This document shows, in pieces, positions 1 to 42,078 of a DNA stretch of 64,000 nucleotides. A program made the translations under genes and the position numbers. The stretch covers positions 243,660,001-243,724,000 of the forward strand of contig OZ024740.1 in assembly GCA_964016885.1 (NCBI GenBank), given 5' to 3'. This stretch comes from Eledone cirrhosa (Eukaryota). The notes under the pieces are model-generated. The model ran no database searches, was not told where the DNA came from, and saw only the letters and a list, made by a program, of their open reading frames with translations. Each line of letters starts with the position of its first letter. The stretch's first letter is position 1.

Positions 1-60
1 TGCTTTTTGTTATTTTAGATTATCAATTTTAATATTTCAGGTTTATAGTTAACCAACAAT

Positions 61-134
61 GGCTCCATAGCTCAGTTGGTTAGAGCGCCAGTCTAGTAAA
101 CTGGAGGTCGAGGGTTCGAATCTCTCTGGAGCCA
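61..134 (+). tRNA. tRNA-Thr(AGU), A73 variant
   Basis: GGCTCCA/TGGAGCC acceptor, GCTC/GAGC D-stem, CCAGT-CTAGTAA-ACTGG anticodon arm (AGT), GAGGG-TTCGAAT-CTCTC T-arm with one G-U; T-run downstream. Confidence 0.8.
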
Positions 135-342
135 TCTATTTTTCTTGTTTAATATTATCAGTTTTAAAAGTTCTGGTTTGCGATCCAGCAACTGTCGCTT
201 CATAACTTAGTAGATTGAAACACTAATACAGTAATATGGAGTTCGAATCTAGCCCAGCCTTCTTTCGCTATTTTTCACTGATCTTTGTAGTTTAGATTTT
301 TTGTGTTTTTTGTTATTTTAGATTGTTAGGTTTAATATTTCA

Positions 343-416
343 GGCCCCATAGCTCAGTTGGTTAGAGCGCCAGTCTAATAAACTGGAGGTCGAAGCTTCA
401 AATACCCATTGAGCCG
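343..416 (+). pseudogene. tRNA-Thr-body pseudogene with AAU anticodon (recurrent: 1570, 3241, 4468, 8139 and others)
   Basis: Loop CTAATAA; T-arm disrupted (GAAGC-TTCAAAT-ACCCA) and 3' acceptor strand mismatched. Confidence 0.8.
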
Positions 417-440
417 GCTCTTGCTATTTTTCATACTATT

Positions 441-705
441 ACTTTTTTATTAGTTTTATTTTTTTATTTTAGCAGTAGTAAATTGAATATATAACAGTAA
501 AAACAGTTTTACAGGTAAAGAAGAATAAGTTAGATTGTGGCGATTAAGAAAGTGTAAAAAAACGGAAAAGGAGAGAAAGAGGCAAGGGCTCACGGAAGAA
601 TGGTGAGGGGGGAAAGGGAGGGTGATTGAGCTGGGAACCTTGCGCCCGGCGGTAATGTGACTACGCTTCGGGGACAACAGTAGAGAAGCATTACCGTGTA
701 CGTTT
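441..705 (-). mobile_element. ~265-bp non-tRNA insert co-amplified in most array subunits; probable 3' end of a retroposed element
   Basis: Flanked by direct repeat TACTATT (434-440, 706-712). On the minus strand it reads GC-rich, then pyrimidine-rich, then an A-rich tail. Confidence 0.45.
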
Positions 706-876
706 TACTATTTCAGGTCAATAATTCTGAAACTTCATACATAGCGCAGTAGGTTAGGGTATCAATCTAGTAATATCGCGCACATGTGTTCGAATCACCC
801 ACGAGCCTTCTTTCGCTATTTCTCATAATTTTCGTACTTTACAATGTGATTTTCTTATTTTCTTAAATTTTACATT

Positions 877-940
877 TCAGATTTACGTACCACCAACAAT
901 GGCCACCAGATTTCAGATTTACGTACCACCAACAATGGCC
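877..940 (+). repeat. 36-bp tandem duplication (TCAGATTTACGTACCACCAACAATGGCCACCAGATT) in most subunits
   Basis: Direct repeat, source of the ISDLRTTNNGHQ pseudo-peptide; single copy at the array edge (~38262-38290). Confidence 0.85.
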
Positions 941-997
941 CGATATCTCGGTTGGTTAGAGCGCCAATGAAGGGTTCGAATACCCCTCGAGACTTCT

Positions 998-1055
998 ATA
1001 AAACACCAGTAATGCACTGGAATAATTGATGGTGTTGTAGCAAAAGTAGAAACAA
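998..1055 (+). mobile_element. SINE 3' tail remnant, co-amplified in each subunit
   Basis: ATAAAACACCAGTAATGCACTGGAATAATTGATGGTGTTGTAGCAAAAGTAGAAACAATT matches the 3' end of the SINE at 38384-38572 and of free copies at 46954 and 59678. Confidence 0.85.
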
Positions 1056-1287
1056 TTAATTTACATTGTCAGTTTTAATAATTCCGGTCGGCGATCCGGC
1101 AACTCTCGCTCCATAGCTCAGTAGGTTAAAACACCAACTAGTAATATGGCGCACATGTGTTCAATACACCCACGATCCTTCGTTCGCTATTTTTCGTAAT
1201 TTTGGTACATTAAATTGAGATTTTTTGTGCTTTTTGTTATTTTAGATTATCAATTTTAATATTTCAGGTTTATAGTTAACCAACAAT

Positions 1288-1361
1288 GGCTCCATAGCTC
1301 AGTTGGTTAGAGCGCCAGTCTAGTAAACTGGAGGTCGAGGGTTCGAATCTCTCTGGAGCCA
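1288..1361 (+). tRNA. tRNA-Thr(AGU), A73 variant
   Basis: Identical to 61-134; full cloverleaf. Confidence 0.8.
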
Positions 1362-2167
1362 TCTATTTTTCTTGTTTAATATTATCAGTTTTAAAAGTTC
1401 TGGTTTGCGATCCAGCAACTGTCGCTTCATAACTTAGTAGATTGAAACACTAATACAGTAATATGGAGTTCGAATCTTGCCCAGCCTTCTTTCGCTATTT
1501 TTCACTGATCTTTGTAGTTTAGATTTTTTGTGTTTTTTGTTATTTTAGATTGTTAGGTTTAATATTTCAGGCCCCATAGCTCAGTTGGTTAGAGCGCCAG
1601 TCTAATAAACTGGAGGTCGAAGCTTCAAATACCCATTGAGCCGGCTCTTGCTATTTTTCATACTATTACTTTTTTATTATTTTTAAGTTTTTATTTTAGC
1701 AGTAGTAAATTGAATTTATAACAGTAAAAACAGTTTTACAGGTAAAGAAGAATATATTAGATTGTGGCGAATAAATGTTCGTACTTTACATTGTAATTTT
1801 CCTATTTTTTTAAATTTTACATTATCAGATTTACGTACCACCAACAATGGCCACCAGATTTCAGATTTACGTACCACCAACAATGGCCACCAGATTTCAG
1901 ATTTACGAATCTCTCTGGAGCCTGCTTTTGCTATTTTTCATCTTTTTCTCGTTTAACATTATCAGTTTTATATTTCTGGTCTGCAATCCAGCAACTGTCG
2001 CTTCATAGCTTAGTAGATTGAAACACCAATCTAGTAGAATGGAGTTCAAATCTCCCTCCAGACTTCTTTCGCTATATTTTACTTGTTTTTGTAGTTTAGA
2101 TACTGATGTTTCATATTTTTGTTATTTTAGATTATCAATTTATTATAGGTTATAGCTTACTAACAGT

Positions 2168-2241
2168 GGCTCCATAGCTCAGTTGGTTAGAGCGCCAGTC
2201 TAGTAAACTGGAGGTCGAGAGTTCGAATCCCTCTGGAGCCT
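2168..2241 (+). tRNA. tRNA-Thr(AGU) with one T-stem mismatch (same class at 5066, 8737, 15868)
   Basis: Cloverleaf intact except GAGAG/CCCTC A-C mismatch; U73; TTTTT terminator follows. Confidence 0.6.
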
Positions 2242-4185
2242 GCTTTTTGCTATTTTCCTTTTTAGTATTTCAGGTTGTCAGTTTTAATATTTCAGATTTA
2301 TTATAGCTTGCCAACAATGGCTCTATAGCTCGGCTGGTTAGAGCGCCAGTCTAGTAAACTAGAGGGCGAGGGATCAAATACCCCTAGAGCCGGCTCTTGC
2401 TATTTTTCATTCTATTACTCTTTTATTATTTTAATTTTTTAATTTTAGCAGTAGTAAATTGAATTTATAACAGTAAAAACAGTTTTACAGGTAAAGAAGA
2501 ATATATTAGATTGTGGCGAAAAAGAAAATGAAAAAAACCGGAAAAGTAGAGAAAAAGGCAAGGGCTCACGGAAGAATGATGAAGGGGGAAAGGGAGGGTG
2601 ATTGGGCTGGGAGCCTTGTGCCCGACGGTAATGTGACTACGCTCCGGGGACAACAGTACAAAAGCATTACAGTGTGCGTTTTACTATTTCAGGTCAGTAA
2701 TTCTGCAACTCCATACATAGCGCAGTAGGTTAGGGTATCAATCTAGAAATATGGGGGAAATGTGTTCGCTATTTTTCATAATTTTCGTACTTTACATTGT
2801 GATTTTCCTTTTTTTTTTAATTTTACATTGTCAGATTTACGTACCACCAACAATGGCCACCAGATTTCAGATTTACGTACCACCAACAATTGCCAGATAC
2901 CTCGGTTGGTTAGAGCGCCAATGAAGGGTTCGAATACTCCTCGAGACTTCTATAAAACACCAGTAATGCACTGGAATAATTGATGGTGTTGTAGCAAAAG
3001 TAGAAACAATTAATTTACATTGTCAGTTTTAATAATGCAGGTAGGCGATCCGGCAACTGTCGCTCCATAGCTCAGTAGGTTAAAACACCAACTAGGAATA
3101 TGGCGAACATGTGTTCAATACACCCACGATCCTCCGTTCGATATTTTTCGTAATTTTGGTACATTAATTGAGATTTTTTGTGCTTTTTGTTATTTTAGAT
3201 TATCAATTTTAATATTTCAGGTTTATAGTTAACCAACAATGGCTCCATAGCTCAGTTGGTTAGAGCGCCAGTCTAATAAACTGGAGGTCGAAGCTTCAAA
3301 TACCCATTGAGCCGGCTCTTGCTATTTTTCATACTATTACTTTTTTATTAGTTTTATTTTTTTATTTTAGCAGTAGTAAATTGAATATATAACAGTAAAA
3401 ACAGTTTTACAGGTAAAGAAAAATAAGTTAGATTGTGGCGATTAAGAAAGTGTAAAAAAACGGAAAAGGAGAGAAAGAGGCAAGGGCTCACGGAAGAATG
3501 GTGAGGGGGGAAAGGGAGGGTGATTGAGCTGGGAACCTTGCGCCCGGCGGTAATGTGACTACGCTTCGGGGACAACAGTAGAGAAGCATTACCGTGTACG
3601 TTTTACTATTTCAGGTCAATAATTCTGAAACTTCATACATAGCGCAGTAGGTTAGGGTATCAATCTAGTAATATCGCGCACATGTGTTCGAATCACCCAC
3701 GAGCCTTCTTTCGCTATTTCTCATAATTTTCGTACTTTACAATGTGATTTTCTTATTTTCTTAAATTTTACATTTCAGATTTACGTACCACCAACAATGG
3801 CCACCAGATTTCAGATTTACGTACCACCAACAATGGCCCGATATCTCGGTTGGTTAGAGCGCCAATGAAGGGTTCGAATACCCCTCGAGACTTCTATAAA
3901 ACACCAGTAATGCACTGGAATAATTGATGGTGTTGTAGCAAAAGTAGAAACAATTAATTTACATTGTCAGTTTTAATAATTCCGGTCGGCGATCCGGCAA
4001 CTCTCGCTCCATAGCTCAGTAGGTTAAAACACCAACTAGTAATATGGCGAACATGTGTTCAATACACCCACGATCCTTCGTTCGCTATTTTTCGTAATTT
4101 TGGTACATTAAATTGAGATTTTTTGTGCTTTTTGTTATTTTAGATTATCAATTTTAATATTTCAGGTTTATAGTTAACCAACAAT

Positions 4186-4259
4186 GGCTCCATAGCTCAG
4201 TTGGTTAGAGCGCCAGTCTAGTAAACTGGAGGTCGAGGGTTCGAATCTCTCTGGAGCCA
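4186..4259 (+). tRNA. tRNA-Thr(AGU), A73 variant
   Basis: Full cloverleaf; copy of 1288 at +2898. Confidence 0.8.
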
Positions 4260-6138
4260 TCTATTTTTCTTGTTTAATATTATCAGTTTTAAAAGTTCTG
4301 GTTTGCGATCCAGCAACTGTCGCTTCATAACTTAGTAGATTGAAACACTAATACAGTAATATGGAGTTCGAATCTTGCCCAGCCTTCTTTCGCTATTTTT
4401 CACTGATCTTTGTAGTTTAGATTTTTTGTGTTTTTTGTTATTTTAGATTGTTAGGTTTAATATTTCAGGCCCCATAGCTCAGTTGGTTAGAGCGCCAGTC
4501 TAATAAACTGGAGGTCGAAGCTTCAAATACCCATTGAGCCGGCTCTTGCTATTTTTCATACTATTACTTTTTTATTATTTTTAAGTTTTTATTTTAGCAG
4601 TAGTAAATTGAATTTATAACAGTAAAAACAGTTTTACAGGTAAAGAAGAATATATTAGATTGTGGCGAATAAATGTTCGTACTTTACATTGTAATTTTCC
4701 TATTTTTTTAAATTTTACATTATCAGATTTACGTACCACCAACAATGGCCACCAGATTTCAGATTTACGTACCACCAACAATGGCCACCAGATTTCAGAT
4801 TTACGAATCTCTCTGGAGCCTGCTTTTGCTATTTTTCATCTTTTTCTCGTTTAACATTATCAGTTTTATATTTCTGGTCTGCAATCCAGCAACTGTCGCT
4901 TCATAGCTTAGTAGATTGAAACACCAATCTAGTAGAATGGAGTTCGAATCTCCCTCCAGACTTCTTTCGCTATATTTTACTTGTTTTTGTAGTTTAGATA
5001 CTGATGTTTCATATTTTTGTTATTTTAGATTATCAATTTATTATAGGTTATAGCTTACTAACAGTGGCTCCATAGCTCAGTTGGTTAGAGCGCCAGTCTA
5101 GTAAACTGGAGGTCGAGAGTTCGAATCCCTCTGGAGCCTGCTTTTTGCTATTTTCCTTTTTAGTATTTCAGGTTGTCAGTTTTAATATTTCAGGTTTATT
5201 ATAGCTTGCCAACAATGGCTCTATAGCTCGGCTGGTTAGAGCGCCAGTCTAGTAAACTAGAGGGCGAGGGTTCAAATACCCCTAGAGCCGGCTCTTGATA
5301 TTTTTAATTCTATTACTCTTTTATTATTTTAATTTTTTAATTTTAGCAGTAGTAAATTGAATTTATAACAGTAAAAACAGTTTTACAGGTAAAGAAGAAT
5401 ATATTAGATTGTGGCGAATAAGAAAATGAAAAAAAACGGAAAAGCAGAGAAAAAGGCAAGGGCTCACGGAAGAATGATGAAGGGGGAAAGGGAGGGTGAT
5501 TGGGCTGGGAGCCTTGTGCCCGACGGTAATGTGACTACGCTCCGGGGACAACAGTACAAAAGCATTACAGTGTGCGTTTTACTATTTCAGGTCAGTAATT
5601 CTGCAACTCCATACATAGCGCAGTAGGTTAGGGTATCAATCTAGAAATATGGGGGAAATGTGTTCGCTATTTTTCATAATTTTCGTACTTTACATTGTGA
5701 TTTTCCTTTTTTTTTTAATTTTACATTGTCAGATTTACGTACCACCAACAATGGCCACCAGATTTCAGATTTACGTACCACCAACAATGGCCAGATACCT
5801 TGGTTGGTTAGAGCGCCAATGAAGGGTTCGAATACCCCTCGAGACTTCTATAAAACACCAGTAATGCACTGGAATAATTGATGGTGTTGTAGCAAAAGTA
5901 GAAACAATTAATTTACTTTGTCAGTTTTAATAATTCAGGTAGGCGATCCGGCAACTGTCGCCCCATAGCTCAGTAGATTAAAACACCAACTAGTAATATG
6001 GCGCACATGTGTTCAATACACCCACGATCCCTCGTTCGCTATTTTTCGTAATTTTGGTACATTAATTGAGATTTTTTTGTGCTTTTTGTTACTTTAGATT
6101 ATCAGTCTTAAGATTTCAGGTGCATAATTTCCAATAAT

Positions 6139-6212
6139 GGCTCCGTAGCTCAGTTGGTTAGAGCGCCAGTCTAGTAAACTGGAGGTCGAGGGTTCGAATC
6201 TCTCTGGAGCCT
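6139..6212 (+). tRNA. tRNA-Thr(AGU)
   Basis: Full cloverleaf with G7-U66, U73, TTTT downstream. Confidence 0.8.
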
Positions 6213-6762
6213 TCTTTTGGCTATTTTTCATCTTTTTCCTTTTTAACATTATCAATTTTAATATTTTTGGTCTGCGATCCACCAACTGTCGCTTCATACC
6301 TTAGTAGATTGAAACACCAATCCAGTAATATGGAGTTCGAATCTCCCCCAGGTTTCTTTTGCTATTTTTTACTGATCTTTGTAGTTTAGATTTTTTGTCT
6401 TTTTTATTGTTTTAGATTGTTAGTTTTATTATTTCAGGTTCCATAGCTCAGTTGGTTAGCGCGCCTGTTTAGTAAACTGGAGGTCGAGTGTTCGAATCCC
6501 TCTGGAGCCTTCTTTTCGCTATTTTTCATCTTTTTCTTGTTTAACATTATCAGTTTTAACAGTTCTGTTCTGCGATCCAGCAACTGTCGCTTCATAGCTT
6601 AGTAGATTGAAACACCAATCCAGTAGAATGGAGTTCGAATCTACCTCCAGACTTCTTTCTCTATTTTTTACTTGTTCTTTTAGTTGAGATCGTGATGTTT
6701 CATATTTTTTGTTATTTTAGATTATCAATTTTAATATTTATAGTTTATAGTTCACCAACAGT

Positions 6763-6836
6763 GGCTCCATAGCTCAGTTGGTTAGAGCGCCCGTCTACTA
6801 AACTGGAAGTCGAGGATTCGAATTCCCCTGGACACT
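6763..6836 (+). pseudogene. tRNA-Thr-body pseudogene with ACU anticodon (recurrent: ~10420, ~13945, ~17624, ~32096)
   Basis: Loop CTACTAA; mismatches in anticodon, T and acceptor stems. Confidence 0.75.
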
Positions 6837-7856
6837 GCTTTTTGCTATTTTTCTTTTTTAGTATTTCAGGATGTCAGTTTAAATATTTCAGGTTTATATC
6901 TTGCCAACAATGGCTCCATAGCTCAGTTGGTTAGAGCGCCAGTCTAGTAAACTAGAAGGCGAGGCTTCGAATACCCCTCGATCCGCTTCTTGCTATTTTT
7001 CATACTATTACTTTTTTATTAGTTTTATTTTTTTATTTTAGCAGTAGTAAATTGAATATATAACAGTAAAAACAGTTTTACAGGTAAAGAAGAATAAGTT
7101 AGATTGTGGCGATTAAGAAAATGTAAAAAAACGGAAAAGGAGAGAAAGAGGCAAGGGCTCACGGAAGAATGGTGAGGGGGGAAAGGGAGGGTGATTGAGC
7201 TGGGAACCTTGCGCCCGGCGGTAATGTGACTACGCTTCGGGGACAACAGTAGAGAAGCATTACCGTGTACGTTTTACTATTTCAGGTCAGTAATTCTGAA
7301 ACTTCATACATAGCGCAGTAGGTTAGGGTATCAATCTAGTAATATCGCGCACATGTGTTCGAATCACCCACGAGCCTTCTTTCGCTATTTCTCATAATTT
7401 TCGTACTTTACAATGTGATTTTCTTATTTTCTTAAATTTTACATTTCAGATTTACGTACCACCAACAATGGCCACCAGATTTCAGATTTACGTACCACCA
7501 ACAATGGCCCGATATCTCGGTTGGTTAGAGCGCCAATGAAGGGTTCGAATACCCCTCGAGACTTCTATAAAACACCAGTAATGCACTGGAATAATTGATG
7601 GTGTTGTAGCAAAAGTAGAAACAATTAATTTACATTGTCAGTTTTAATAATTCCGGTCGGCGATCCGGCAACTCTCGCTCCATAGCTCAGTAGGTTAAAA
7701 CACCAACTAGTAATATGGCGCACATGTGTTCAATACACCCACGATCCTTCGTTCGCTATTTTTCGTAATTTTGGTACATTAAATTGAGATTTTTTGTGCT
7801 TTTTGTTATTTTAGATTATCAATTTTAATATTTCAGGTTTATAGTTAACCAACAAT

Positions 7857-7930
7857 GGCTCCATAGCTCAGTTGGTTAGAGCGCCAGTCTAGTAAACTGG
7901 AGGTCGAGGGTTCGAATCTCTCTGGAGCCA
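7857..7930 (+). tRNA. tRNA-Thr(AGU), A73 variant
   Basis: Full cloverleaf; copy of 4186 at +3671. Confidence 0.8.
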
Positions 7931-9809
7931 TCTATTTTTCTTGTTTAATATTATCAGTTTTAAAAGTTCTGGTTTGCGATCCAGCAACTGTCGCTTCATA
8001 ACTTAGTAGATTGAAACACTAATACAGTAATATGGAGTTCGAATCTTGCCCAGCCTTCTTTCGCTATTTTTCACTGATCTTTGTAGTTTAGATTTTTTGT
8101 GTTTTTTGTTATTTTAGATTGTTAGGTTTAATATTTCAGGCCCCATAGCTCAGTTGGTTAGAGCGCCAGTCTAATAAACTGGAGGTCGAAGCTTCAAATA
8201 CCCATTGAGCCGGCTCTTGCTATTTTTCATACTATTATTTTTTTATTATTTTTAAGTTTTTATTTTAGCAGTAGTAAATTGAATTTATAACAGTAAAAAC
8301 AGTTTTACAGGTAAAGAAGAATATATTAGATTGTGGCGAATAAATGTTCGTACTTTACATTGTAATTTTCCTATTTTTTTAAATTTTACATTATCAGATT
8401 TACGTACCACCAACAATGGCCACCAGATTTCAGATTTACGTACCACCAACAATGGCCACCAGATTTAAGATTTACGAATCTCTCTGGAGCCTGCTTTTGC
8501 TATTTTTCATCTTTTTCTCGTTTAACATTATCAGTTTTATATTTCTGGTCTGCAATCCAGCAACTGTCGCTTCATAGCTTAGTAGATTGAAACACCAATC
8601 TAGTAGAATGGAGTTCGAATCTCCCTCCAGACTTCTTTCGCTATATTTTACTTGTTTTTGTAGTTTAGATACTGATGTTTCATATTTTTGTTATTTTAGA
8701 TTATCAATTTATTATAGGTTATAGCTTACTAACAGTGGCTCCATAGCTCAGTTGGTTAGAGCGCCAGTCTAGTAAACTGGAGGTCGAGAGTTCGAATCCC
8801 TCTGGAGCCTGCTTTTTGCTATTTTCCTTTTTAGTATTTCAGGTTGTCAGTTTTAATATTTCAGGTTTATTATAGCTTGCCAACAATGGCTCTATAGCTC
8901 GGCTGGTTAGAGCGCCAGTCTAGTAAACTAGAGGGCGAGGGTTCAAATACCCCTAGAGCCGGCTCTTGATATTTTTCATTCTATTACTCTTTTATTATTT
9001 TAATTTTTTAATTTTAGCAGTAGTAAATTGAATTTATAACAGTAAAAACAGTTTTACAGGTAAAGAAGAATATATTAGATTGTGGCGAATAAGAAAATGA
9101 AAAAAAACGGAAAAGCAGAGAAAAAGGCAAGGGCTCACGGAAGAATGATGAAGGGGGAAAGGGAGGGTGATTGGGCTGGGAACCTTGTGCCCGAAGGTAA
9201 TGTGACTACGCTCCGGGGACAACAGTACAAAAGCATTACAGTGTGCGTTTTACTATTTCAGGTCAGTAATTCTGCAACTCCATACATAGCGCAGTAGGTT
9301 AGGGTATCAATCTAGAAATATGGGGGAAATGTGTTCGCTATTTTTCATAATTTTGGTACTTTACATTGTGATTTTCCTTTTTTTTTAAATTTTACATTGT
9401 CAGATTTACGTACCACCAACAATGGCCACCAGATTTCAGATTTACGTACCACCAACAATTGCCAGATACCTCGGTTGGTTAGAGCGCCAATGAAGGGTTC
9501 GAATACTCCTCGAGACTTCTATAAAACACCAGTAATGCACTGGAATAATTGATGGTGTTGTAGCAAAAGTAGAAACAATTAATTTACATTGTCAGTTTTA
9601 ATAATGCAGGTAGGCGATCCGGCAACTGTCGCCCCATAGCTCAGTAGATTAAAACACCAACTAGTAATATGGCGCACATGTGTTCAATACACCCACGATC
9701 CCTCGTTCGCTATTTTTCGTAATTTTGGTACATTAATTGAGATTTTTTTGTGCTTTTTGTTACTTTAGATTATCAGTTTTAAGATTTCAGATGCATAATT
9801 TCCAATAAT

Positions 9810-29862: not shown

Positions 29863-31070
29863 AAATAGTAAAAGTACGAAAATTATGAAAAATAGCGAAA
29901 GAAGGCTCGTGGGTGATACGAACACATTTCCCCCATATTTCTAGATTGATACCCTAACCTACTGCGCAGTGTATGAAGTTGCGGAATTACTGACCTGAAA
30001 TAGTAAAACGCACACGGTAATGCTTTTGTACTGTTGTCCCGGGAGCGTAGTCACATTACCGTGGGGCGCAAGATCCCAGCCCAATCACCCTCCCTTTCCC
30101 CCTTCATCATTCTTCCGTGAGCCCTTGCCTTTTTCTCTCCTTTTCCGTTTATTTTCATTTTCTTATTCGCCACAATCTAATATATTCTTCTTTACCTGTA
30201 AAACTGTTTTTACTGTTATAAATTCAATTTACTACTGCTAAAATTAAAAAATTAAAATAATAAAAGAGTAATAGTATGAAAAATAGCAAGAGCCGGCTCT
30301 AGGGGTATTTGAACCTTCGACCTCTAGTTTACTAGAATGGCGCTCTAACCAACTGAGCTATGGGGCCTGAAATATTAAACCTAACAATCTAAAATAACAA
30401 AAAAACACAAAAAATCTAAACTACAAAGATCAGTAAAAAATAGCGAAAGAAGGCTGGGGCAAGATTCGAACTCCATATTACTGTATTGGTGTTTCAATCT
30501 ACTAAGCTATGAAGCGACAGTTGCTGGATCGCAAACCAGAACTATTAAAACTGATAATATTAAAAAAGAAAAATGGAAGGCTCCAGAGAGATTCGAACCC
30601 GCGACCTAACCAACTGAGCTATGGAGCTATTGTTGGTATGCTAGAAACCTGAAATATTAAAACTGATAATGTAAAATAACAAAACGCACAAAAAATCTCA
30701 ATTAATGTACCAAAATTACGAAAAATAGCGAACGAAGGATCGTGGGTGTATTGAACACATGTTCGCCATATTACTAGTTGGTGTTTTAACCTACTGAGCT
30801 ATGGAGCGGCAGTTGCCGGATCGCCTACCTGAAATATTAAAACTGACAATGTAAATTAATTGTTTCTACTTTTGCTACAACACCATCAATTATTCCAGTG
30901 CATTACTGGTGTTTTATAGAAGTCTCGAGGGGTATTCGAACCCTTCATTGGCGCTCTAACCAACCGAGGTATCGGGTCATTGTTGGTGGTACATAAATCT
31001 GAAATCTGGTGGCCATTGTTGGTGGTACGTAAATCTGACAATGTAAAATTTTAAAAAATAGTAAAATCAC
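29863..31070 (-). repeat. Inverted array subunit (~1.2 kb)
   Basis: Reverse complement of array sequence (e.g. CTCTAACCAACTGAGCTATGG); forward orientation resumes at 31071. Confidence 0.9.
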
Positions 31071-31470
31071 GATTTACGTACCACCAACAATGGCCACCAA
31101 ACTTCAGATTTACGTACCACCAACAATTGCCAGATACCTCGGTTGGTTAGAGCGCCAATGAAGGGTTCGAATACCCCTCGAGACTTCTATAAAACACCAG
31201 TAATGCACTGGAATAATTGATGGTGTTGTAGCAAAAGTAGAAACAATTAATTTACATTGTCAGTTTTAATAATGCAGGTAGGCGATCCGGCAACTGTCGC
31301 TCCATAGCTCAGTAGGTTAAAACACCAACTAGTAATATGGCGAACATGTGTTCAATACACCCACGATCCTTCGTTCGCTATTTTTCGTAATTTTGGTACA
31401 TTAAATTATGATTTTTTTGTTACTTTAGATTATCAGTTTTAAGATTTCATGTGTATAGTTTGCTAACAAT

Positions 31471-31544
31471 GGCTCCGTAGCTCAGTTGGTTAGAGCGCCA
31501 GTCTAGTAAACTGGAGGTCGAGGGTTCGAATCCCTCTGGAGCCT
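31471..31544 (+). tRNA. tRNA-Thr(AGU)
   Basis: Full cloverleaf, G7-U66, TTTTTT terminator. Confidence 0.85.
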
Positions 31545-31770
31545 TCTTTTTGCTATTTTTCATCTTTTTCTTTTTTAACATTATCAATTTTAATATTTTT
31601 GGTCTGCGATCCAGCAACTGTCGCTTCATAGCTTAGTAGATTGAAACACCAATCCAGTAGAATGGAGTTCGAATCTCCCTCCAGACTTCTTTCGCTATTT
31701 TTTACTGATCTTTGTAGTTTAGATTTTTTTGTCTTTTTTATTGTTTTAGATTGTTAGCTTTATTATTTCA

Positions 31771-31844
31771 GGCTCCATAGCTCAGTTGGTTAGAGCGCCA
31801 GTCTAGTAAACTGGAGGTCGAGGGTTCGAATCCCTCTGGAGCCT
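31771..31844 (+). tRNA. tRNA-Thr(AGU), fully Watson-Crick stems
   Basis: Same sequence as 17772-17845. Confidence 0.88.
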
Positions 31845-34800
31845 TCTTTTGCTATTTTTCATCTTTTTCTTGTTTAACATCATCAGTTTTAACAGTTCTG
31901 GTCTGAGATCCAGCAACTGTCGCTTCATAGCTTAGTAGATTCAAACACCAATCCAGTAGAATGGAGTTCGAATCTCCCTCCAGACTTCTTTCGCTATTTT
32001 TTACTTGTTCTTGTATTTTAGATCGTGATGTTTCATATTTTTTGTTATTTTAGATTATCAATTTTAATATTAATAGTTTATAGTTCACCAACAGTGGCTC
32101 CATAGCTCAGTTGGTTAGAGCGCCCGTCTACTAAACTGGAAGTCGAGGATTCGAATTCCCTTTGACCCTGCTTTTGCTATTTTTCTTTTTTAATATTTCA
32201 GGATGTCAGTTTAAATATTTCAGGTTTATATCTTGCCAACAATGGCTCCATAGCTCGGTTTGTTAGAGCGCCAGTCTAGTAAACTAGAAGGCGAGGCTTC
32301 GAATACCCCTCGATCCGCTTCTTGCTATTTTTCATACTATTACTTTTTTATTATTTTAATTTTTTTATTTTAGCAGTAGTAAATTGAATTTATAACAGTA
32401 AAAACAGTTGTACAGGTAAAGAAGAATATATTAGATTGTGGCGAATTAGAAAATGTAAAAAAACGGAAAAGGAGAGAAAAAGGCCAGGGCTCACGGAAGA
32501 ATGGTGAGGGGGGAAAGGGAGGGTAATTGGTCTGGGAGCCTTGCGCCTGGCGGTAATGTAACTACGCTCCGGGGACAACAGTACAAAAGCATTACCGTGT
32601 ACGTTTTACTATTTCAGGTCAATAATTCTGCAACTCCATACATAGCGCAGTAGGTTAGGGTATCAATCTAGAAATATGGGGGAAATGTGGTCGAATCACC
32701 CACGAGCCTTCTTTCGTTATTTTTCATAATTTTCGTACTTTACATTGTGATTTTCCTATTTTTTTAAATTTTGCATCGTCAGATTTACGTACCACCAACA
32801 ATGGCCACCAGATTTCAGATTTACGTACCACCAACAATTGCCAGATACCTCGGTTGGCTAGAGCGCCATTGAAGGGTTCGAATACCCCTCGAGACTTCTA
32901 TAAAACACCAGTAATGCACTGGAATAATTGATGGTGTTGTAGCAAAAGTAGAAACAATTAATTTACATTGTCAGTTTTAGTAATTCAGGTAGGCGATCCG
33001 TCAACTGTCGCTCCATAGCTCAGTAGGTTAAAACACCAACTAGTAATATGGCGAACATGTGTTCGAATCACCCACGATCCTTCGTTCGCTATTTTACGTA
33101 ATTTTGGTACATTAAATTAAGATTTTTTATGCTTTTTGTTATTTTAGATTATCAGTTTTAATATTTCAGGTTTATAGTTCACCAACAATGGCTCCATAGC
33201 TCAGTTGGTTAGAGCGCCAGTCTAGTAAACTGAATGTCGAGGGTCGAATCCCTCTGGAGCCTTCATTTGATATTTTTCATCTTTTTCTTGTTTAACATTA
33301 TCAGTTTTAATAGTTCTGGTATGCGATCCAGCAACTGTCGCTTCATAGCTTAGTAGATTGAAACACCAATGCCGTAATATGGAGTTCGAATCTTGCCCCA
33401 GCCTTCTTTCGCTATTTTTTACTGATCTTTGTAGTTTAGACTTTTTGTCTTTTTTGCTATTTAGATTGCTAGTTTTAATTTTTCAGGTTCCATAGATCCA
33501 TAGTTAGAGCGTCAGTCTAGTAAACTGGACGTCGAGTGTTCGAATCTCCCTGGAGCCTGCTTTTTTTTGCTATTTATCTTTTTTAGTATTTCAGGTTGTC
33601 AGTTTTAATATTTCAGTTTTATAGCTTGCCAACAATCGCTCCATAGCTCGGTTTGTTAGAGCCCCAGTCTAGTAAACTGGAAGGCGAGGGTACGAATATC
33701 CCTCGAGCCGCTTCTTGTTATTTTTCATACTATTACTTTTTTATTATTTTTTATTTTTACAGTAGTAAATTGATATTTATAACAGTAAAAACATATGGGG
33801 AACATGTGTTCAATACACCCACGATCCTTCGTTCGCTATTTTACGTAATTTTGGTACATTAAATTGAGATTTGTTATGCTTTTTGTTATTTTAGATTATC
33901 AGTTTTAATATTTCAGGTTTATAGTATACCAACAATGGCTCCATAGCTCAGTTGGTTAGAGCGCCAGTCTAGTAAACTGAATGTCGAGGGTCGAATCCCT
34001 CTGGAGCCTTCTTTTGCTATTTTTAACAGTTCTGGTGTGCGATCCAGCAACTGTCGCTTCATAGCTTAATAGATTGAAACACCAATCCAGTAATATGGAG
34101 TTCGAATCTCCCCCCCAGCCTTCTTTCGCTATTTTTACTGATCTTTGTAGCTTAGATTTTTTGTGTTTTTTGTTATTTTAGATTGTTAGGTTTAATATTT
34201 CAGGCCCCATAGCTCAGTTGGTTAGAACGCCAGTCTAATAAACTGGAGGTCGAGGTTTCGAATTCCCCTGGCGCCTGCTTTTGCTATTTTTCTTGTTAGT
34301 ATTTCAGGTTGTCAGTTTTAATATTTCAGCTTGCAATCAATGGCTTCATAGCACGGTAGGTTAGAGCGCCAGTCTAGTAAACTTGAGGTCGAGGGTTCGA
34401 ATACCCCTCAAGCCGCCTCTTGCTATTTTTCCTACTATTACTTTTTTATTATTTTTATTTTTTTATTTTTACAGTAATAAATTGATATTTGTAACAGTAA
34501 AAACAGTTTTACAGGTAAAGAAGAATAAATTAGATTGTGGCGAATAAGAAAATGTAAAAAAACGGAAAAGGGAGGAAAAAGGCAATGTCTCACGGAAGAA
34601 TGTTGAGGGGGAAAGGGGAGGGTGATTGGACTGAGAGCCTTGCGCCCGGCGGTAATGTGACTACGCTCCGGAGACAACACTACAAAAGCATTACCGTGTG
34701 CGTTTTACTATTTCAGGTCAGTAATTCTGCAACTTCATACATTGCGCAGTAGGTTAGAGTATCAATCTAGAAATATGGAAGAAATGTGTTTGAATCACCC

Positions 34801-35467
34801 CCGAGCCTTCTTTCGCTATTTTTCATAATATTTCGTACTTTACATTGTGATTTTCGTATTTTTTTATATTTTACATTGTCAGATTTACGTACCACCAACA
34901 ATGGCCACCAGATTTCAGATTTATGTACCACCAACAATTGCCCGGTACCTCGGTTGGTTAGAGCGCCAATGAAGGGTTCGAATACCCCTCGAGACTTCTA
35001 TAAAACACCAGTAATGCACTGGAATAATTGATGGTGTTGTAGCAAAAGTAGAAACAATTAATTTACATTGTCAGTTTTAATATTTCAGGTCGGCGATCCG
35101 GCAACTGTCGCTCCATAGCTCAGTAGGTTAAAACACCAACTAGTAATATGGCGAACATGTCTTAAATACACCCACGATCCTTCGTTCGCTACTTTTCGTA
35201 ATTTTGGTACATTAATTGAGATTTTTTGTGCGTTTTGTTATTTTACATTATCAGTTTTTATATTTCAGATTTATAGTTAACCAACAATGGCTCCATAGCT
35301 CAGTTGGTTAGAGCGCCAGTCTAGTAAACTCGAGGTCGAAGATTCGAATCCCCCTAGAGCCTGCTTTTGCTATTTTTCTTTTCAATATTTTAGGTTCGCA
35401 GTTTTAATAATTCAGGTTTATAGCTTGCCAACAATGGCCACAGAGCTCGGTTGGTTAAAGCGCTTGT

Positions 35468-36483
35468 CTAGACTGGCGCTCTAACCAACTGAGCTATGGA
35501 GCCATTGTTGGTATACTATAAACCTGAAATATTATAACTGATAATCTAAAATAACAAAAAATACGAACATTCACTATCTAAACTACAAATATCACTAAAA
35601 AAATATCGAAAGAAGGCTGGGGGGAGATTCGAACTCCATATTACTGGATTGGTGTTTCAATGTACTAAGCTAAGAAGCGACATTTGCAGGATCGCACACC
35701 AGAACTATTAAAACTGATAATATTAAACAAGAAAAAGATAAAAAAATAGCAAAGATGACTATAGAATGATTCGAACCCGCGACCCTCAGGTTACTAGACT
35801 GGCACTCTAACCACCTGAGCCACGGAACCATTGTTGGTACACTATCAACCCGAAATATTAAAACTAGAAATCTAAAATAACAAAAAACCCAAAAATCTAA
35901 ACTACAAAAATCAGTAAAAAATAGCGAAAGAAGTCTGGAGGGAGACTCGAACTCCATATTACTGCATTGGTGTTTCAATCTACTAAGCTATGAAGCGACA
36001 GTTGCTGGATCGCTGACCAGAAATATTAAGACTGATAATGTTAAACAAGAAAAAGATGAAAAATGGCAAAAGAAGGCTTAAGGGGGCTCGAAACATCGAC
36101 CTCCAGTTTACTAGACTGGCGCTCTAACCAACTGAGCTATGAAGCCACGTTGTCAAGCTATAAACCTGACAAGCTAAAACACTAAACTAAAAAGAAAAAT
36201 AGCAAAAAGCTGGCTCCAGAGAGATTCGAACCCTCGACCTCCAGATCACTAGACTGGCGCTCTAAAAAAACTGAGCTATGGAGCCATTGTTGTTAAACTA
36301 TAAACTTGAAATATTAAAACCTACTGAGCTATGGAATTTCAGAATTACTGACCTGAAATAGTAAAACGCACACGGTAATTCTTTTGTAACTTTGTCCCCG
36401 GAGCGCCGTCACATTACCGCTGCGCCCAAAGCCCCGAGCCCAATCACCTATCCCTTTCTCCCTCATCATTCTTCCGTGAGCCC
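35468..36483 (-). repeat. Inverted array block (~1.0 kb)
   Basis: Reverse-complement tRNA monomers; left junction at the CTAG of an anticodon loop. Confidence 0.9.
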
Positions 36484-38383
36484 AACTAGTAATATGGCGA
36501 ACATGTGTTCAATACACCCACGATCCTTCGTTCACTATTTTTCGCAATTGTGGTACATTAAATTGAGATTTTTTGTATTTTTAGTTATTTTAGATTATCA
36601 GTTTTAATATTTCAGGTTTGTAGTTAACCAACAATGGCACCATAGCTCAGTTAGTTAGAACGCCAGTTTAGTAAACTAGCGGTCAAGGCTTCGAATACCT
36701 CTCGAGCCGCCACTTGCTATTTTTCATAGTATTACTTTTTTATTATTTTAATTTTTTTAATTTTTACAGTAGTAAATTGATATTTATAATAGTAAAAACA
36801 GTTTTACAGGTAAAAAGAATAAATTAGATTGAGGCGAATAAGAAAATATAAAAAAACCGAAAAGGAAAGAAAACGGCAAGGGGTCACGGAAGAATAGTGA
36901 GGGTTAAAGGGGAGGGTGATTGGGCTCGGGGCCTTGGGCCTGGCGGTAATGTGACGGCGCTCCGGGGACAAAACTACAAAAGCATTACCGTGTGCGTTTT
37001 ACTATTTTAGGTCAGTAATTCTGCAACTCCATAGCTCAGTAGATTTTAATATTTCAGGTTTATAGCCTTCCAACAATGGCTCCGTAGCTCAGGTGGTTTG
37101 AGCGCCAGTCTAGTAATCTGGAGGTCGATGTTTCGAACCCCCTTAAGCCTTCTTTTGCCATTTTTCATCTTTTTCTTGTTTAACATTATCAGTTTTAATA
37201 TTTCTGGTCTACGATCCAGCAAATGTCTCTTCATAGCTTAGTAGATTGACACACCAATCCAGTAATATGGAGTTCGAATCTCCCTTCAGCCTTCTTTCGA
37301 TATTTTTTACTGATCTTTTTTAGTTTAGATTTTTTGTGTTTTTGTTATTTTAGATTGTTAGTTTTAAAATTTCAGGTTTATAGTTTAGTAACAATGTCTC
37401 CATAGCTTTGTTGGTTAGAGCGCCAGTCTAGTAAACTGGAGATCGAATCCCTCTTGAGCCTTCTTTTGCTATTTGTTCATCTTTTTCTTGCTTAACATTA
37501 TCAGTTTTAATATTTCTGGTCTGCGATCTGGCTATTGTCGCTTCATAGCTTAGTAGATTGAAACACCAATCCGGTAATATGGAGTTCGAATCTCCCTCCA
37601 GCCTTCTTTCCTTATTTTTTTAGTGCATTTTCTAGTTTAGATAGTGATGTTTCGTATTTTTTGTTATTTTAGATTATTAGCTTTAATATTTCAGGTTTAA
37701 AGCTTTGTACCAATTGGCTCCGTTGGTTAGAGCGCCAGTCTAGTAAACGGGAGGTCGAGGGTTCGAACAACCCTCGAACCTTCTCTTGCTATTATTTATA
37801 CTATTACTTTTTTATTATTTTTACTTTTTTATTTTTACAGTAGTAAAATGATATTTATAATTATAACAGTAAAAACTGTTTAACAGGTAAAGAAGAATAA
37901 ATAGATTGAGGCGAATAAGAAAATATAAATAAACGGAAAAGGGAAGAAAAAAGGCAAGGGCTCACGGAAGAATAATGAGGGGGGAAAAGGGAGTGTGATT
38001 GGGCACGGGGCCCTGGGCCCGGCGGTAATGTGACTGCGCTCCGGGGACAACACTACAAAAGCATTACCGTGTCCGTTTTACTATTTCAGGTCAGTAATTC
38101 TGCAACTCCATAGCTCAGTAGGTTAGAGCATCAATCTAGTAATATGGCGGACATGTGTTCGAATCACCTACGAGCTTTCTTTCGCTATTTTTTTTATAAT
38201 TTTCGTACTTTACATTGTGATTTTCCTTATTTTAAAATTTGACATCGTCAGTCTTAATATTTCAGATTTACGTACCACCAACAATGGCCCCATAGCTCGG
38301 TTGGTTAGAGCGCCAATCAAGGGTTCGAATACCCCTGGAGACTTCTTTTGCTATTTTTCATCCTTTTATTATATTACATTGTC

Positions 38384-38572
38384 GGTGGATTGGCAGTATC
38401 GGTAGAAGGGCGAACGCCATGCTTTGCGGTATAGAGTTATGGCCCTTTACCGTCTGAGTTACAATTCTGCCAACGTTAAATTTGTTTTCATCCGTTAAGG
38501 GTCGATAAAATAAAACACCAGTAATGCACTGGAATAATTGCTGGTATTGTAGCAAAAGTAGAAACAATCATT
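38384..38572 (+). mobile_element. Full-length SINE inserted in the array spacer
   Basis: Matches the SINE family at 46954 and 59678; flanked by TTACATTGTC at 38374-38383 and 38573-38582 (TSD). Confidence 0.85.
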
Positions 38573-38615
38573 TTACATTGTCAGTTTTAATATTTCAGGT
38601 CGGCGATCCGGCAAC

Positions 38616-39809
38616 AGGCAGGGTTCCGACCAAAACGTTCCTGTGCAGAGCAGATTTTTACGCTCCGTCACATCATTGAGAGGTACAACGAATTCCAGAG
38701 GCCCCTCGCCATCAGCTTCATCGATTTCTCCAAAGCATTCGATAGCCATCGACCGTCGCTCTGGAGCATCATGCATGAGTATGGTCTGCCCCAGAAAGTC
38801 ATTTCGGCAATCAAACAGATTTACGCAAACTCCAAGTGCTGCATACGGACAGAGGATGGTTACAGTGACTGGTTTGGTGTGGTTACTGGTGTGCGTCAAG
38901 GTTGCTCGCTCTCTCCAATTCTCTTTGCCATAGCCATTGACTGGGTACTAAGAAGAGCGTCTAAAGACCAGGGTATATCTTGGGTGGGAGAGCAAAAGTT
39001 GTCTAACCTGGACTTTGCGGACGATATTGCTGCACTTGCAGAGAGCACAGCTGACCTGCAAATCATTATGAACAATATCAATGTCGAAGCAGGAAGCTTA
39101 GGTCTCAATATCGGTGCCAAGAAGACCAAAAGCATTTTATCTGGGACACCCCACCACCAACCAGTGTCTTCATTGAACAGGGGGAGGTGGAGATAGTGGA
39201 CAACTTCACCTACCTAGGAAGCTCCATTAACAATGAGGGCACCATGGACAGTGAACTGCAATGTAGAATGGGAAAGGCTTCAGCAGCATTTAACCAGCTT
39301 GACAAGATCTGGAAGAGCAGGAAGTTCACCCTCAAAACAAAGATGAGATTCTACAACAGCAACGTGCTGTCCACACTCTTGTACGGAAGTGAAACATGGC
39401 ACCTTAAGACCAGCCAAGATAAGAAGCTGGACGCATTCGATTCCAGATGTCTGCGAAAGATCCTGGGGATCAAATGGAGTGACCATGTAACAAACCAGGA
39501 AGTCAGGAACCGCAGCACCAACCAGCAGCTAGTCTCTTCTACCATCTACAAGCGACGCCTGGGCTGGTTTGGACACGCTTTGAGACTTCCCCGGAGAGAC
39601 TGGCGAACCAAGTACTTAAATGGAGCCCGCAGGGAAGCAGACGGAGAGGGCCACCCAATATGAACTGGCGCCAGACAGTTGAGAGGGACCTGCGAGCGAC
39701 AAACAGACAATGGCGGGACGCTGTGCAACTGGCTGCTGACCGAACGCGATGGAACACTATGATTGCTTCATGCGCCGCAAGACGCGGGAGTTTCTGAGGC
39801 TGAGTCTGA
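38616..39809 (+). mobile_element. 5'-truncated RTE-clade LINE, frameshifted reverse transcriptase
   Basis: Motifs FIDFSKAFDS, GVRQGCSLSP, DFADD, FTYLGS, LLYGSETW; short (CTGAG)-type 3' repeats; 11-bp TSD GATCCGGCAAC (38605-38615, 39810-39820). Confidence 0.92.
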
Positions 39810-39997
39810 GATCCGGCAACTTTCGCTCCATAGCTCAGTAGGTTAAAACACCAACTAGTAATATGGCGAACATGTGTTCGAATCACCCACGATCCTTCGT
39901 TCGCTATTTGTTACTTTAAATTGAGATTTTTCGTGTTTTGTTTATGTTATTTTAGTTTGTCAGTCTTAATATTTCAGTTTTACCGTTAACTACCCGT

Positions 39998-40071
39998 GGC
40001 TCCATAGCTCAGTTGGTTAGAGCGCCAGTCTAGTAAACTGGAGGTCGAGGGTTCGAATCCCTCTGGAACCT
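39998..40071 (+). tRNA. tRNA-Thr(AGU) with C3-A70 acceptor mismatch
   Basis: Cloverleaf intact except 3' strand TGGAACC. Confidence 0.5.
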
Positions 40072-40310
40072 TCATTTGCTATTTTTCATCTTTTTCTTGT
40101 TTAACATTATCAGTTTTAATATTTCTGGTCTGCGATCCAACAACTGTCGCTTCTTAGCTTAGTAGATTGAAACACCAATGCAGTAATATGGAGTTCGAAT
40201 CTCCCTCCAGCCTTCTTTCGCTATTTTTCATTGTTTTGGTACTTTACATTGTGATTTTTCCTAATTTCGTTATTTTAGATGGTCACTTTTAATATTTCAG
40301 GTTCATCAAT

Positions 40311-40384
40311 GGCTCCATAGCTGAGTTGGTTAGACCGCCAGCCTTGTAAGCTGGATGTCATGGGTTAGAATGATCTTAGATCTT
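40311..40384 (+). pseudogene. tRNA-Thr(UGU)-type pseudogene at array edge
   Basis: Anticodon arm CCAGC-CTTGTAA-GCTGG; D- and T-arms decayed. Confidence 0.65.
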
Positions 40385-40525
40385 CCTGTTTGTTTTTTAG
40401 TATTTTAAATCGTCAGTTTTAATATTTCAGGCTTGTAGTTTAACAACAATAGCTCTTCCGCTCAGTTGGTTAGTCTGCCAGTCTAGTAAATTAGAAGTTT
40501 AGGGTTCGTATCCACCTGGAGCGTT

Positions 40526-42017: not shown

Positions 42018-42078
<61 letters not shown>

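What the first reader, a model, noticed from the sequence alone, without database searches (positions are those of the whole stretch)
1..40525. A >40-kb higher-order satellite built from one tRNA isoacceptor (Thr-AGU), mixing intact genes with fixed pseudogene classes
Seen: nearly every monomer, including very decayed ones (e.g. CGCTTCATAGCTTAGTAGATTGAAACACC..GGAGTTCGAATCT), aligns to the same tRNA-Thr. Monomer classes recur in fixed order within ~1.2-1.5 kb subunits and 2898/3671-bp HORs; the 3671 unit is the 2898 unit plus ~773 bp of extra monomers. At least 11 copies fold fully. Known: alpha-satellite has monomer/HOR hierarchy, Entamoeba has tRNA arrays, and fission yeast centromeres use tRNA clusters as barriers. 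Inference: this could be a structural (centromeric, pericentromeric or boundary) satellite made from tDNA and/or a Thr-tRNA dosage locus. I do not know of a description of it, but I cannot search.
Basis: partly seen in the sequence, partly recalled or inferred. Interest (0 to 1): 0.8.

Follow-up and report, generated by a model that had tools for sequence, protein, structure and literature searches.

The report
Threonine tRNA gene array gathering pseudogenes
This is a 52-kb head-to-tail array of one threonine tRNA gene in which most copies are decayed; it likely grew by unequal crossing-over, it is one of several such tRNA arrays in this genome, and it lacks the size and spread of a centromeric satellite.

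Summary
The array is real and longer than reported: 52.5 kb (window -11,929 to 40,525), 255 tRNA-Thr(AGT)-derived monomers, 32 structurally intact (22 in the window). The basic repeat is a seven-monomer unit of about 1.37 kb with two near-intact slots and five decayed ones. The 2,898 and 3,671 bp periods exist but are local duplications of 2 and about 2.5 copies, not a regular higher-order repeat. The leftmost gene is identical to dispersed Thr-AGT genes elsewhere and is the likely founder. The two intact slots differ at 2 of 73 tRNA bases but 15 of 62 flank bases (P = 0.0002), so their tRNA body has been kept by selection or conversion. The array's spacer was found at this locus only. The same genome holds independent tandem arrays of Thr-AGT, Thr-TGT, Thr-CGT, Gly-GCC and Asp/Glu genes, several with fixed pseudogene slots. 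Verdict: a birth-and-death tRNA gene array, the genome's main Thr-AGT locus by copy number (36 of 44 exact anticodon arms), unusual for its density and depth of decay. A centromeric role is not supported; expression is untested. New variant of a known kind; interest 0.38.

The parts
1..40525 (+). In-window part of the tRNA-Thr(AGT) tandem array (195 of 255 monomers); the array starts 11,929 bases left of the window (G000:C1:243,648,071) with the likely founder gene
1..20500 (+). Young core (continues left to about -9,200): nested recent duplications; 13 of the 16 sampled units there lie within 1.6% of another unit; holds 22 of the 32 intact genes of the whole array
343..6245 (+). 2,898-bp duplication, 2 copies, 98.3% identical
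3184..12482 (+). 3,671-bp duplication, about 2.5 copies, 98.2% identical
61..133 (+). Example intact slot-A tRNA-Thr(AGT) gene with A box, B box and T-run terminator (9 identical copies in the whole array)
2168..2240 (+). Example near-intact slot-S gene (one T-stem mismatch; 6 identical copies)
5293..5600 (+). Example non-tRNA insert between slots D and E; found only in this array
20500..40525 (+). Older, more decayed part: units from 21,900 on lie 4-17% from their nearest relative; 7 intact genes among 94 monomers
29862..31070 (-). Inverted segment (6 monomers)
35468..36480 (-). Inverted segment (6 monomers) starting at a fold-back inside an anticodon arm
38381..38575 (+). Full-length dispersed-repeat (SINE-like) copy after slot F; in the other units examined only its 3' end remains, which marks this unit as the outgroup
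38616..39811 (+). 5'-truncated LINE (RVT_1, E 5.7e-23) with a target-site duplication of about 10 bp, just upstream of a slot-G pseudogene
39998..40070 (+). Intact gene in the oldest, right-end unit (2 differences from the founder although the surrounding stretch is at best 82% like other units)

Best explanation
This is a single-locus tandem array of tRNA-Thr(AGT) genes and pseudogenes that likely grew rightwards from one ordinary gene by repeated unequal crossing-over and likely supplies some Thr tRNA from its intact copies. Shown: the leftmost gene is identical to dispersed genes on other contigs; the repeat unit has seven tRNA-derived slots in fixed order; two slots keep the tRNA body while five are decayed; recent duplications lie in the centre-left and old units at the edges. 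Inferred order of events: (1) short tandem copies of the gene plus about 80 bp of flank; (2) most copies decayed; (3) a block of seven, with a captured insert and a SINE, became the unit of amplification, which froze the decayed copies into fixed slots; (4) further slips of one to several units gave the local 2.9 and 3.7 kb periods. Inferred upkeep: purifying selection on total Thr-AGT supply and/or gene conversion among near-identical tRNA bodies keeps slots A and S intact on average, while single copies keep dying; slots that are already 25-30% diverged are likely beyond conversion and ride along as spacer.
For: Founder identical to genes on C26 and C3 and matching C2 over 45 bases, all with unrelated flanks; slot B and G monomers carry the founder's last 10 upstream bases. 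Slot A against slot S majorities: body 2/73, flanks 15/62, Fisher P = 0.0002; among decayed slots body and flank diverge alike (B-G, E-G, B-E, P = 0.4-1). The two most widely spread changes in slot A (15 and 9 of 27 copies) keep the stems paired, whereas 15 of 19 singleton stem changes break them. A base that repairs the 50-64 pair is in 30 of 32 intact copies but in none of the D, F and G monomers, as expected from conversion or selection among intact bodies. Age gradient and SINE-deletion outgroup. 30 of 32 intact copies have a T-run within 22 bases. The same organisation recurs at independent loci: Thr-AGT on C3 (10 copies, intact and decayed alternating), Thr-TGT on C24 (22 pieces, whole and half genes), Thr-CGT on C1, Gly-GCC (61 of 75 motif matches in three arrays, units with 1 intact plus 2 decayed pieces), Asp/Glu on C3 (1,337-bp period over at least 172 kb). 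The Arabidopsis 81-gene array shows the same multi-unit expansion with non-functional genes at the ends (PMC2886086).
Against: No expression data were available, so function of any array copy is inferred. Within the recent expansion, slot A is not measurably better kept than pseudogene slots G and B (15 of 73 against 29 of 135 variable columns in 22 G-A-B blocks, P = 1), which fits neutral drift on that time scale. All three tRNA-derived parts, pseudogenes included, vary less than the spacers (mean p-distance 0.034-0.064 against 0.086-0.097), which this model does not explain except by base composition and alignment noise in T-runs. Only 2 of 5 shared stem changes are stem-compatible. Selection and gene conversion cannot be told apart here. 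The class comparison rests on majority sequences and 31-base flanks, and class labels among A, S, C and D are approximate.
Confidence: 0.68

Rival explanations
1. Wholly neutral, silent amplification: only the founder and the dispersed genes work; intact-looking copies are young or passively converted, and the array is on its way to becoming a tRNA-derived satellite.
For: No difference between slot A and slots G/B in the recent expansion; 223 of 255 monomers fail the intactness test; singleton changes mostly break stems; sampled copies in the Asp/Glu and Gly arrays also carry many private changes. PMC2886086 argued for drift in the Arabidopsis array.
Against: Slots A and S kept the body while flanks diverged 24%; an intact gene survives in the oldest right-end unit; a pair-repairing base spread through the intact copies. 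Conversion alone could do this, so the rival is not excluded.
Confidence: 0.17
2. Germ-line or maternal tRNA supply: the arrays of this genome are switched on in oocytes or early embryos and the dispersed genes serve the soma, as reported for zebrafish.
For: In zebrafish, maternally deposited isodecoders lie in repetitive clusters and late ones in isolated genes (PMC11417395, passages). Here three dispersed Thr-AGT genes and the founder share one T-arm variant, while 30 of 32 intact array copies and the C3 array carry another. All five isoacceptor queries that gave matches revealed arrays. CpG observed/expected is 0.89 in this array and 0.9-1.2 inside the Gly and Asp/Glu arrays against 0.38-0.49 in the flanks, compatible with escape from germ-line methylation.
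Against: The split is not clean: a dispersed gene on C19 has the array-type base; Gly-GCC and Asp-GTC arrays share their commonest sequence with dispersed genes, and the Thr-TGT array variant also occurs in 2 of 6 single genes read. High CpG may only reflect youth.
Confidence: 0.15
3. Structural element: a centromeric or pericentromeric satellite, or a TFIIIC-bound boundary, in which pseudogene slots are kept as promoter-box landing pads.
For: Fixed monomer order as in alpha satellite (alpha-satellite features recalled). Box-like words are dense: 2.8 B-box and 2.5 A-box matches per kb against 0.4 and 0.03 in the flank; slot G keeps a B-box match in 29 and an A-box match in 27 of 30 copies; slot E keeps box positions better than others (2 of 21 against 21 of 52 changed, P = 0.008). 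The human 1q23.3 tRNA repeat was proposed as a boundary (PMC4041453, abstract).
Against: Box retention is significant in 1 of 7 groupings tested (others P = 0.09-0.95); slots C, D and F have lost the B box in 73 of 74 copies. Single 52-kb locus, no regular higher-order repeat, no satellite field in the flanks, a protein-coding exon about 41 kb away.
Confidence: 0.07
4. Assembly artefact.
For: No record in the runs laid spans a whole unit, so unit order and number are unverified. The best-holding runs may be the assembly's own sample.
Against: Contigs of runs X1-X3 hold tRNA slots, spacers and insert at many times the depth of the unique flank (67-188 against 8.6-12.7; summed depth is no copy number); the internal deletion junction seen in the assembly appears in samples S1 and S2; raw reads X5 and X6 from another study cover parts of slots E-G (18 and 13 of 30 bins). 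Unit-specific substitutions form a tree with 0-17% distances.
Confidence: 0.03

Closest known systems
Arabidopsis chromosome 1 tRNA-Ser/Tyr/Tyr array (81 genes, 27 units; PMC2886086, abstract and first part of Results read)
   Same: Multi-gene basal unit in fixed order, expansion by one or several units, single locus, non-functional genes towards the ends, unequal crossing-over model
   Different: Here one isoacceptor only, seven slots, five of them heavily decayed; about 5 monomers per kb
Genome-wide tandem tRNA arrays of Hydractinia and Nematostella (PMC11067881, passages), Phytophthora infestans (PMC9584435, passages) and Entamoeba (PMC2652664, abstract start and passages)
   Same: Most tRNA genes of a type sit in tandem arrays with similar spacers, often on one chromosome; the same holds for the isoacceptors sampled in this genome
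   Different: Those arrays are described as near-identical or similar genes; the Entamoeba paper reports no clear pseudogenes. Here 223 of 255 monomers are not intact
tRNA-derived tandem repeats of amphibians: newt PolIII/TAN, Xenopus OAX, Rana/polIII (seen as summarised in PMC10702118, passages)
   Same: Short tandem monomers with a tRNA-like part
   Different: Rana/polIII is given as up to 10% of the genome and the families are described as tRNA-like only; this array is 0.002% of the genome and still holds the founder and 31 other intact genes, so it looks like an intermediate stage
Zebrafish clustered maternal tRNA genes (PMC11417395, passages)
   Same: Clustered and dispersed copies of one isoacceptor, partly with different sequences
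   Different: Expression untested here; the sequence split between arrays and single genes is partial
Human 1q23.3 tRNA VNTR (PMC4041453, abstract and outline)
   Same: Tandem tRNA repeat at one locus
   Different: 7.3-kb GC-rich unit with tRNA under 6% of it and a CTCF site; here AT-rich, about a third tRNA-derived
Xenopus oocyte 5S DNA (gene plus pseudogene in each unit) and primate alpha satellite (both recalled, not read)
   Same: Fixed pseudogene inside an amplified Pol III gene unit; diverged monomers in fixed order
   Different: Different gene; no long homogeneous higher-order array here

Membership tests
Tandem tRNA gene array | Head-to-tail units that each carry intact tRNA gene(s) with A box, B box and terminator | tested here: met
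   32 intact genes, 30 with a T-run; 243 of 255 monomers on one strand
Tandem tRNA gene array | Spacers shared between units and confined to the locus | tested here: met
   41 of 41 spacer matches in this array; 40 of 265 candidates scored
Tandem tRNA gene array | Signature of unequal crossing-over: single- and multi-unit duplications, older edges | tested here: met
Tandem tRNA gene array | Array copies are transcribed into mature tRNA | not testable with these tools
   No small-RNA or ChIP data were at hand
Tandem tRNA gene array | Copy number varies among individuals | not tested
   One assembly; contig depths are not copy numbers
Alpha-satellite-type centromeric higher-order repeat (features recalled) | Diverged monomer classes in fixed order | tested here: met
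   Class majorities differ by up to 41% in the tRNA body and recur in order
Alpha-satellite-type centromeric higher-order repeat (features recalled) | One higher-order unit repeated many times at near identity over hundreds of kb | tested here: not met
   2,898 bp twice, 3,671 bp about 2.5 times; 52.5 kb in all
Alpha-satellite-type centromeric higher-order repeat (features recalled) | Related arrays on many chromosomes or a satellite field around it | tested here: not met
Alpha-satellite-type centromeric higher-order repeat (features recalled) | CENP-A chromatin | not testable with these tools
   Needs ChIP or CUT&Tag
tRNA-derived tandem repeat family (PolIII/TAN, OAX, Rana/polIII) | Short tandem monomers with tRNA-like sequence | tested here: met
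   4.9 monomers per kb
tRNA-derived tandem repeat family (PolIII/TAN, OAX, Rana/polIII) | Abundant repeat family detached from working tRNA genes | tested here: not met
   One locus, 32 intact genes, founder present
tRNA-derived SINE | Dispersed copies sharing a body and tail behind the tRNA head | tested here: not met
   Dispersed Thr-AGT copies have unrelated flanks and end in T-rich trailers; 44 exact anticodon-arm matches genome-wide
Maternal-type clustered tRNA genes (zebrafish) | Array-specific isodecoders distinct from dispersed genes | tested here: inconclusive
   Partly true for Thr-AGT and Thr-TGT, not for Gly-GCC and Asp-GTC
Maternal-type clustered tRNA genes (zebrafish) | Expression confined to oocytes and early embryos | not testable with these tools
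   Needs staged tRNA-seq
TFIIIC-bound tDNA boundary | Promoter boxes kept better than the rest of the decayed tRNA | tested here: inconclusive
   Significant for slot E only, 1 of 7 groupings

The most novel reading that the evidence does not exclude
This animal keeps most of its tRNA genes in tandem arrays that serve a separate, germ-line or maternal translation pool, as zebrafish does, and the Thr-AGT array is a tRNA-derived satellite caught in the making: founder, working slots and frozen pseudogene slots with surviving promoter boxes all still in one place.
Probability: 0.15. Interest if true: 0.72.

Novelty: new variant of a known kind. Interest (0 to 1): 0.38.

Why it matters
It is a readable record of how a working tRNA gene turns into satellite-like DNA: founder, seven-slot unit, dated layers and array-specific bases are all present, so birth-and-death, gene conversion and drift can be tested with one tRNA-seq and one comparative assembly. 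The wider point is that tandem tRNA arrays with built-in pseudogenes are the rule for the isoacceptors sampled in this 3-Gb genome; the Hydractinia paper (PMC11067881) calls such organisation unusual in animals, and my searches found no account of it for cephalopods, the group this genome resembles by my recollection of its repeats. It does not reveal a new centromere type.

Tried and rejected
RF00005 as a genome-wide tRNA census: 63 of about 552,000 candidates scored, 16 matches; of the 14 outside the array, 10 were heads of one dispersed tRNA-like repeat, 3 another repeat, 1 a Thr-type gene, so it was useless as a sample of tRNA loci. A recalled Lys-CTT anticodon-arm motif found nothing; uninformative. 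Sequencing-run search: no RNA holder listed. An ARAGORN 'Tyr' call near the C3 array was not a tRNA on reading. Box-retention test: significant in 1 of 7 groupings. Recent-phase selection test on 22 G-A-B blocks: no difference between intact and pseudogene slots. Array-versus-dispersed isodecoder split: not general. Left junction in contigs: pieces run from the unique flank 30 bases into the founder, one short of the tool's bridging rule. Protein atlas on the flanking MFS exon only repeated the Pfam family. SINE origin of the monomers rejected. Earlier findings of the scan: nothing shown. Literature searches without a description of this array or of cephalopod tRNA arrays: 0 papers; listings read by title and abstract start only; the library lacks most subscription papers, and no supplements were read.


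Full report
Place and extent. The window is G000:C1:243,660,001-243,724,000 in a genome of 3.0 Gb. ARAGORN tRNA genes in the window, 49 of them Thr-AGT, all between 60 and 40,071. With 100 kb of left flank added, nhmmer shows the array starting abruptly at window -11,929 and ending at 40,525, 52.5 kb. Of 268 hits in the array, 13 overlapping weaker ones were dropped, leaving 255 monomers, 195 in the window, 4.9 per kb. The taxon is not given; microsatellite-rich flanks and the SINE-like repeat remind me of octopus-type cephalopod genomes, which is recall and comes from no call.

Anatomy. Sorting monomers by best match to eight exemplars (A 45, B 46, C 22, D 22, E 31, F 30, G 30, S 29; labels among A, S, C and D are approximate) gives a basic unit A-B-S-D-[insert]-E-F-[SINE end]-G of about 1.37 kb, seen plainly in the first two units, and many variants with extra AB or CB blocks or missing slots. 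The top lags are 3,671, 2,898, their sum, and 11,672, but each rests on one long self-alignment: 5.6 kb at 98.2% and 3.0 kb at 98.3%. These are local duplications, not an iterated higher-order repeat. Two segments are inverted (12 monomers), one starting at a fold-back in an anticodon arm. A truncated LINE with a short target-site duplication sits at 38.6-39.8 kb.

History. A tree of 30 insert-plus-E segments shows 13 of the 16 units between -8,000 and 20,500 within 1.6% of another unit (the other three at 0.4-4.6%), and distances of 4-17% from 21,900 rightwards and 5-6% in the two leftmost units. The unit at 38,100 carries the whole SINE-like copy, the others read only its 3' end, so the amplified unit descends from a deleted version. 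The leftmost gene has a unique upstream flank and is identical to dispersed genes on C26 and C3; a 45-base pattern ending in its T arm and acceptor matches four places only, that gene and C2, C3, C26. Slots B and G keep the founder's last upstream bases, and the D, F and G monomers keep its base at position 64. I infer that the array grew from this gene.

Intact genes and selection. 32 of 255 monomers have no indel, at most one broken pair and both promoter boxes; 22 lie in the window, 31 read AGT and one has shifted to TGT. RF00005 gives 27 window copies at least 60 bits, dispersed Thr-AGT genes 68.5-70. Slots A and S differ at 2 of 73 body positions but 15 of 62 flank positions (P = 0.0002), while decayed slots diverge equally in body and flank. 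A base that completes the 50-64 pair is in 30 of 32 intact copies. Against this, in the recent expansion slot A is no better kept than G and B, and 15 of 19 singleton stem changes break pairs. Together: the working sequence has been kept over the long run, by selection or conversion, while single copies die freely.

Genome context. An exact 27-base anticodon-arm pattern matches 44 places: 36 in this array, 4 in a second Thr-AGT array on C3 and 4 single genes. The C3 array has 10 copies about 1 kb apart, unrelated spacers, and intact and decayed copies in turn. The non-tRNA insert matches this locus only (41 of 41 matches, 40 of 265 candidates scored). A Thr-TGT query found arrays on C24 (22 pieces in 4 kb, whole and half genes), C160 and C11 and a Thr-CGT array on C1. 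Recalled anticodon-arm motifs found Gly-GCC at 75 places, 61 in three arrays whose sampled units hold intact genes plus decayed pieces, and Asp-GTC at 157 places, 94 of the 100 listed in an Asp/Glu array of 1,337-bp period running at least 172 kb; a third motif found nothing. So tandem arrays with pseudogene slots are common here; the Thr-AGT array stands out by density and depth of decay. Flanks hold LINE and hAT fragments and an MFS transporter exon about 41 kb to the left (64 open frames scanned) and no tandem repeat longer than 1.7 kb. CpG observed/expected is 0.89 in the array and 1.0 in its insert against 0.38 and 0.49 in the flanks.

Reality of the assembly. Contigs of runs X1-X4 and raw reads X5 and X6 hold the array's slots, spacers and one internal deletion junction. 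X1-X3 may be the assembly's own sample, X4 is a second sample of that study, X5 and X6 another study with partial cover. No record spans a unit, so order and number of units are not independently confirmed.

Mechanism. Shown: structure, founder identity, age layers, conserved bodies in two slots, single locus, sister arrays. Inferred: unequal crossing-over as the engine, freezing of decayed copies once a seven-slot block became the unit, upkeep of A and S by selection or conversion, and some tRNA output. Confidence 0.68; rivals are silent neutral DNA (0.17), a maternal tRNA pool (0.15, overlapping the best explanation), a structural role (0.07) and artefact (0.03). The structural idea gets only one significant box-retention result in seven groupings; the maternal idea gets a partial isodecoder split for Thr but none for Gly and Asp.

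Comparison with print. PMC2886086 (abstract and first part of Results) describes an Arabidopsis array with a three-gene unit, multi-unit expansions, non-functional genes towards the ends and probable drift. PMC11067881 (passages) reports tandem arrays of tRNAs for all 20 amino acids in Hydractinia and calls this unusual outside Entamoeba. PMC9584435 (passages) reports single-chromosome tRNA arrays in Phytophthora. PMC2652664 (passages) finds no clear pseudogenes in Entamoeba arrays. PMC4041453 (abstract, outline) proposes a boundary role for a human tRNA repeat. PMC10702118 (passages) lists amphibian tRNA-like tandem repeats. PMC11417395 (passages) links clustered tRNA genes to maternal supply in zebrafish. 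PMC7919458 and PMC2888827 (passages) cover tRNA cluster turnover and anticodon shifts. Nine searches showed no account of this array or of cephalopod tRNA arrays; the library is incomplete and no supplements were read.

Verdict. It works like, and meets the sequence features of, a tandem tRNA gene array; it fails the tests for a centromeric higher-order satellite. New variant of a known kind: a dense single-isoacceptor array in which five of seven slots are fixed pseudogenes, part-way to a tRNA-derived satellite. Interest 0.38.

Noticed in passing
G000:C3:277,237,000 to at least 277,410,000 (L052-L055): Asp-GTC/Glu-TTC gene pair in opposite orientation, repeated with a 1,337-bp period over at least 172 kb; many sampled copies carry private changes, two Glu copies read CTC.
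   Followed up: partly
G000:C1:141.18-141.28 Mb, C4:11.78-11.85 Mb, C4:26.06-26.10 Mb (L058-L065): Three Gly-GCC arrays; the 2.48-kb unit holds one intact and two decayed copies, the 2.6-2.8-kb unit holds Gly-GCC, a Gly-CCC-like gene and a half gene.
   Followed up: partly
L035:3,495-6,765 (G000:C24:25.35 Mb): Dense Thr-TGT array, 90-170 bp spacing, whole genes alternating with 3' half genes: a smaller parallel to the finding.
   Followed up: partly
L013-L014 (G000:C3:17.745-17.755 Mb): Second Thr-AGT array of 10 copies in a 2.1-kb intact-plus-decayed dimer; it ends at a 200-N gap, so it may be longer.
   Followed up: partly
L010:4,467-4,540 and 833-906; L020:4,956-5,029: Anticodon shifts AGT to TGT on the Thr-AGT body, two in the array (one structurally intact, 70 bits) and one dispersed on C19 (75 bits); decayed slots also read ACT (7) and AAT (13).
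   Followed up: partly
L021-L030: A dispersed repeat family whose head still folds as a tRNA and scores 53-72 bits with RF00005 under varying anticodons; it would inflate tRNA counts in this genome.
   Followed up: no
window 38,616-39,811: LINE inserted a few bases upstream of a tRNA pseudogene; probably chance given the density of such sites, but tRNA-targeting elements exist (recalled).
   Followed up: partly
L005:6,175-7,107: 311-codon open frame of an MFS (monocarboxylate-transporter-like) gene about 41 kb left of the array.
   Followed up: no
L001-L003, L071: Repeated open frames with a reverse transcriptase followed by a PHD finger; L071:5,883-9,644 is a 1,254-codon frame with endonuclease, RT and PHD domains.
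   Followed up: no
L019:3,707-3,752: Histone 3' stem-loop match 1 kb from the dispersed Thr-AGT gene on C2.
   Followed up: no
window 42,000-44,400: Strongly G-skewed GT-rich stretch (GC skew 0.66) followed by a retroelement-like fragment without Pfam match.
   Followed up: no
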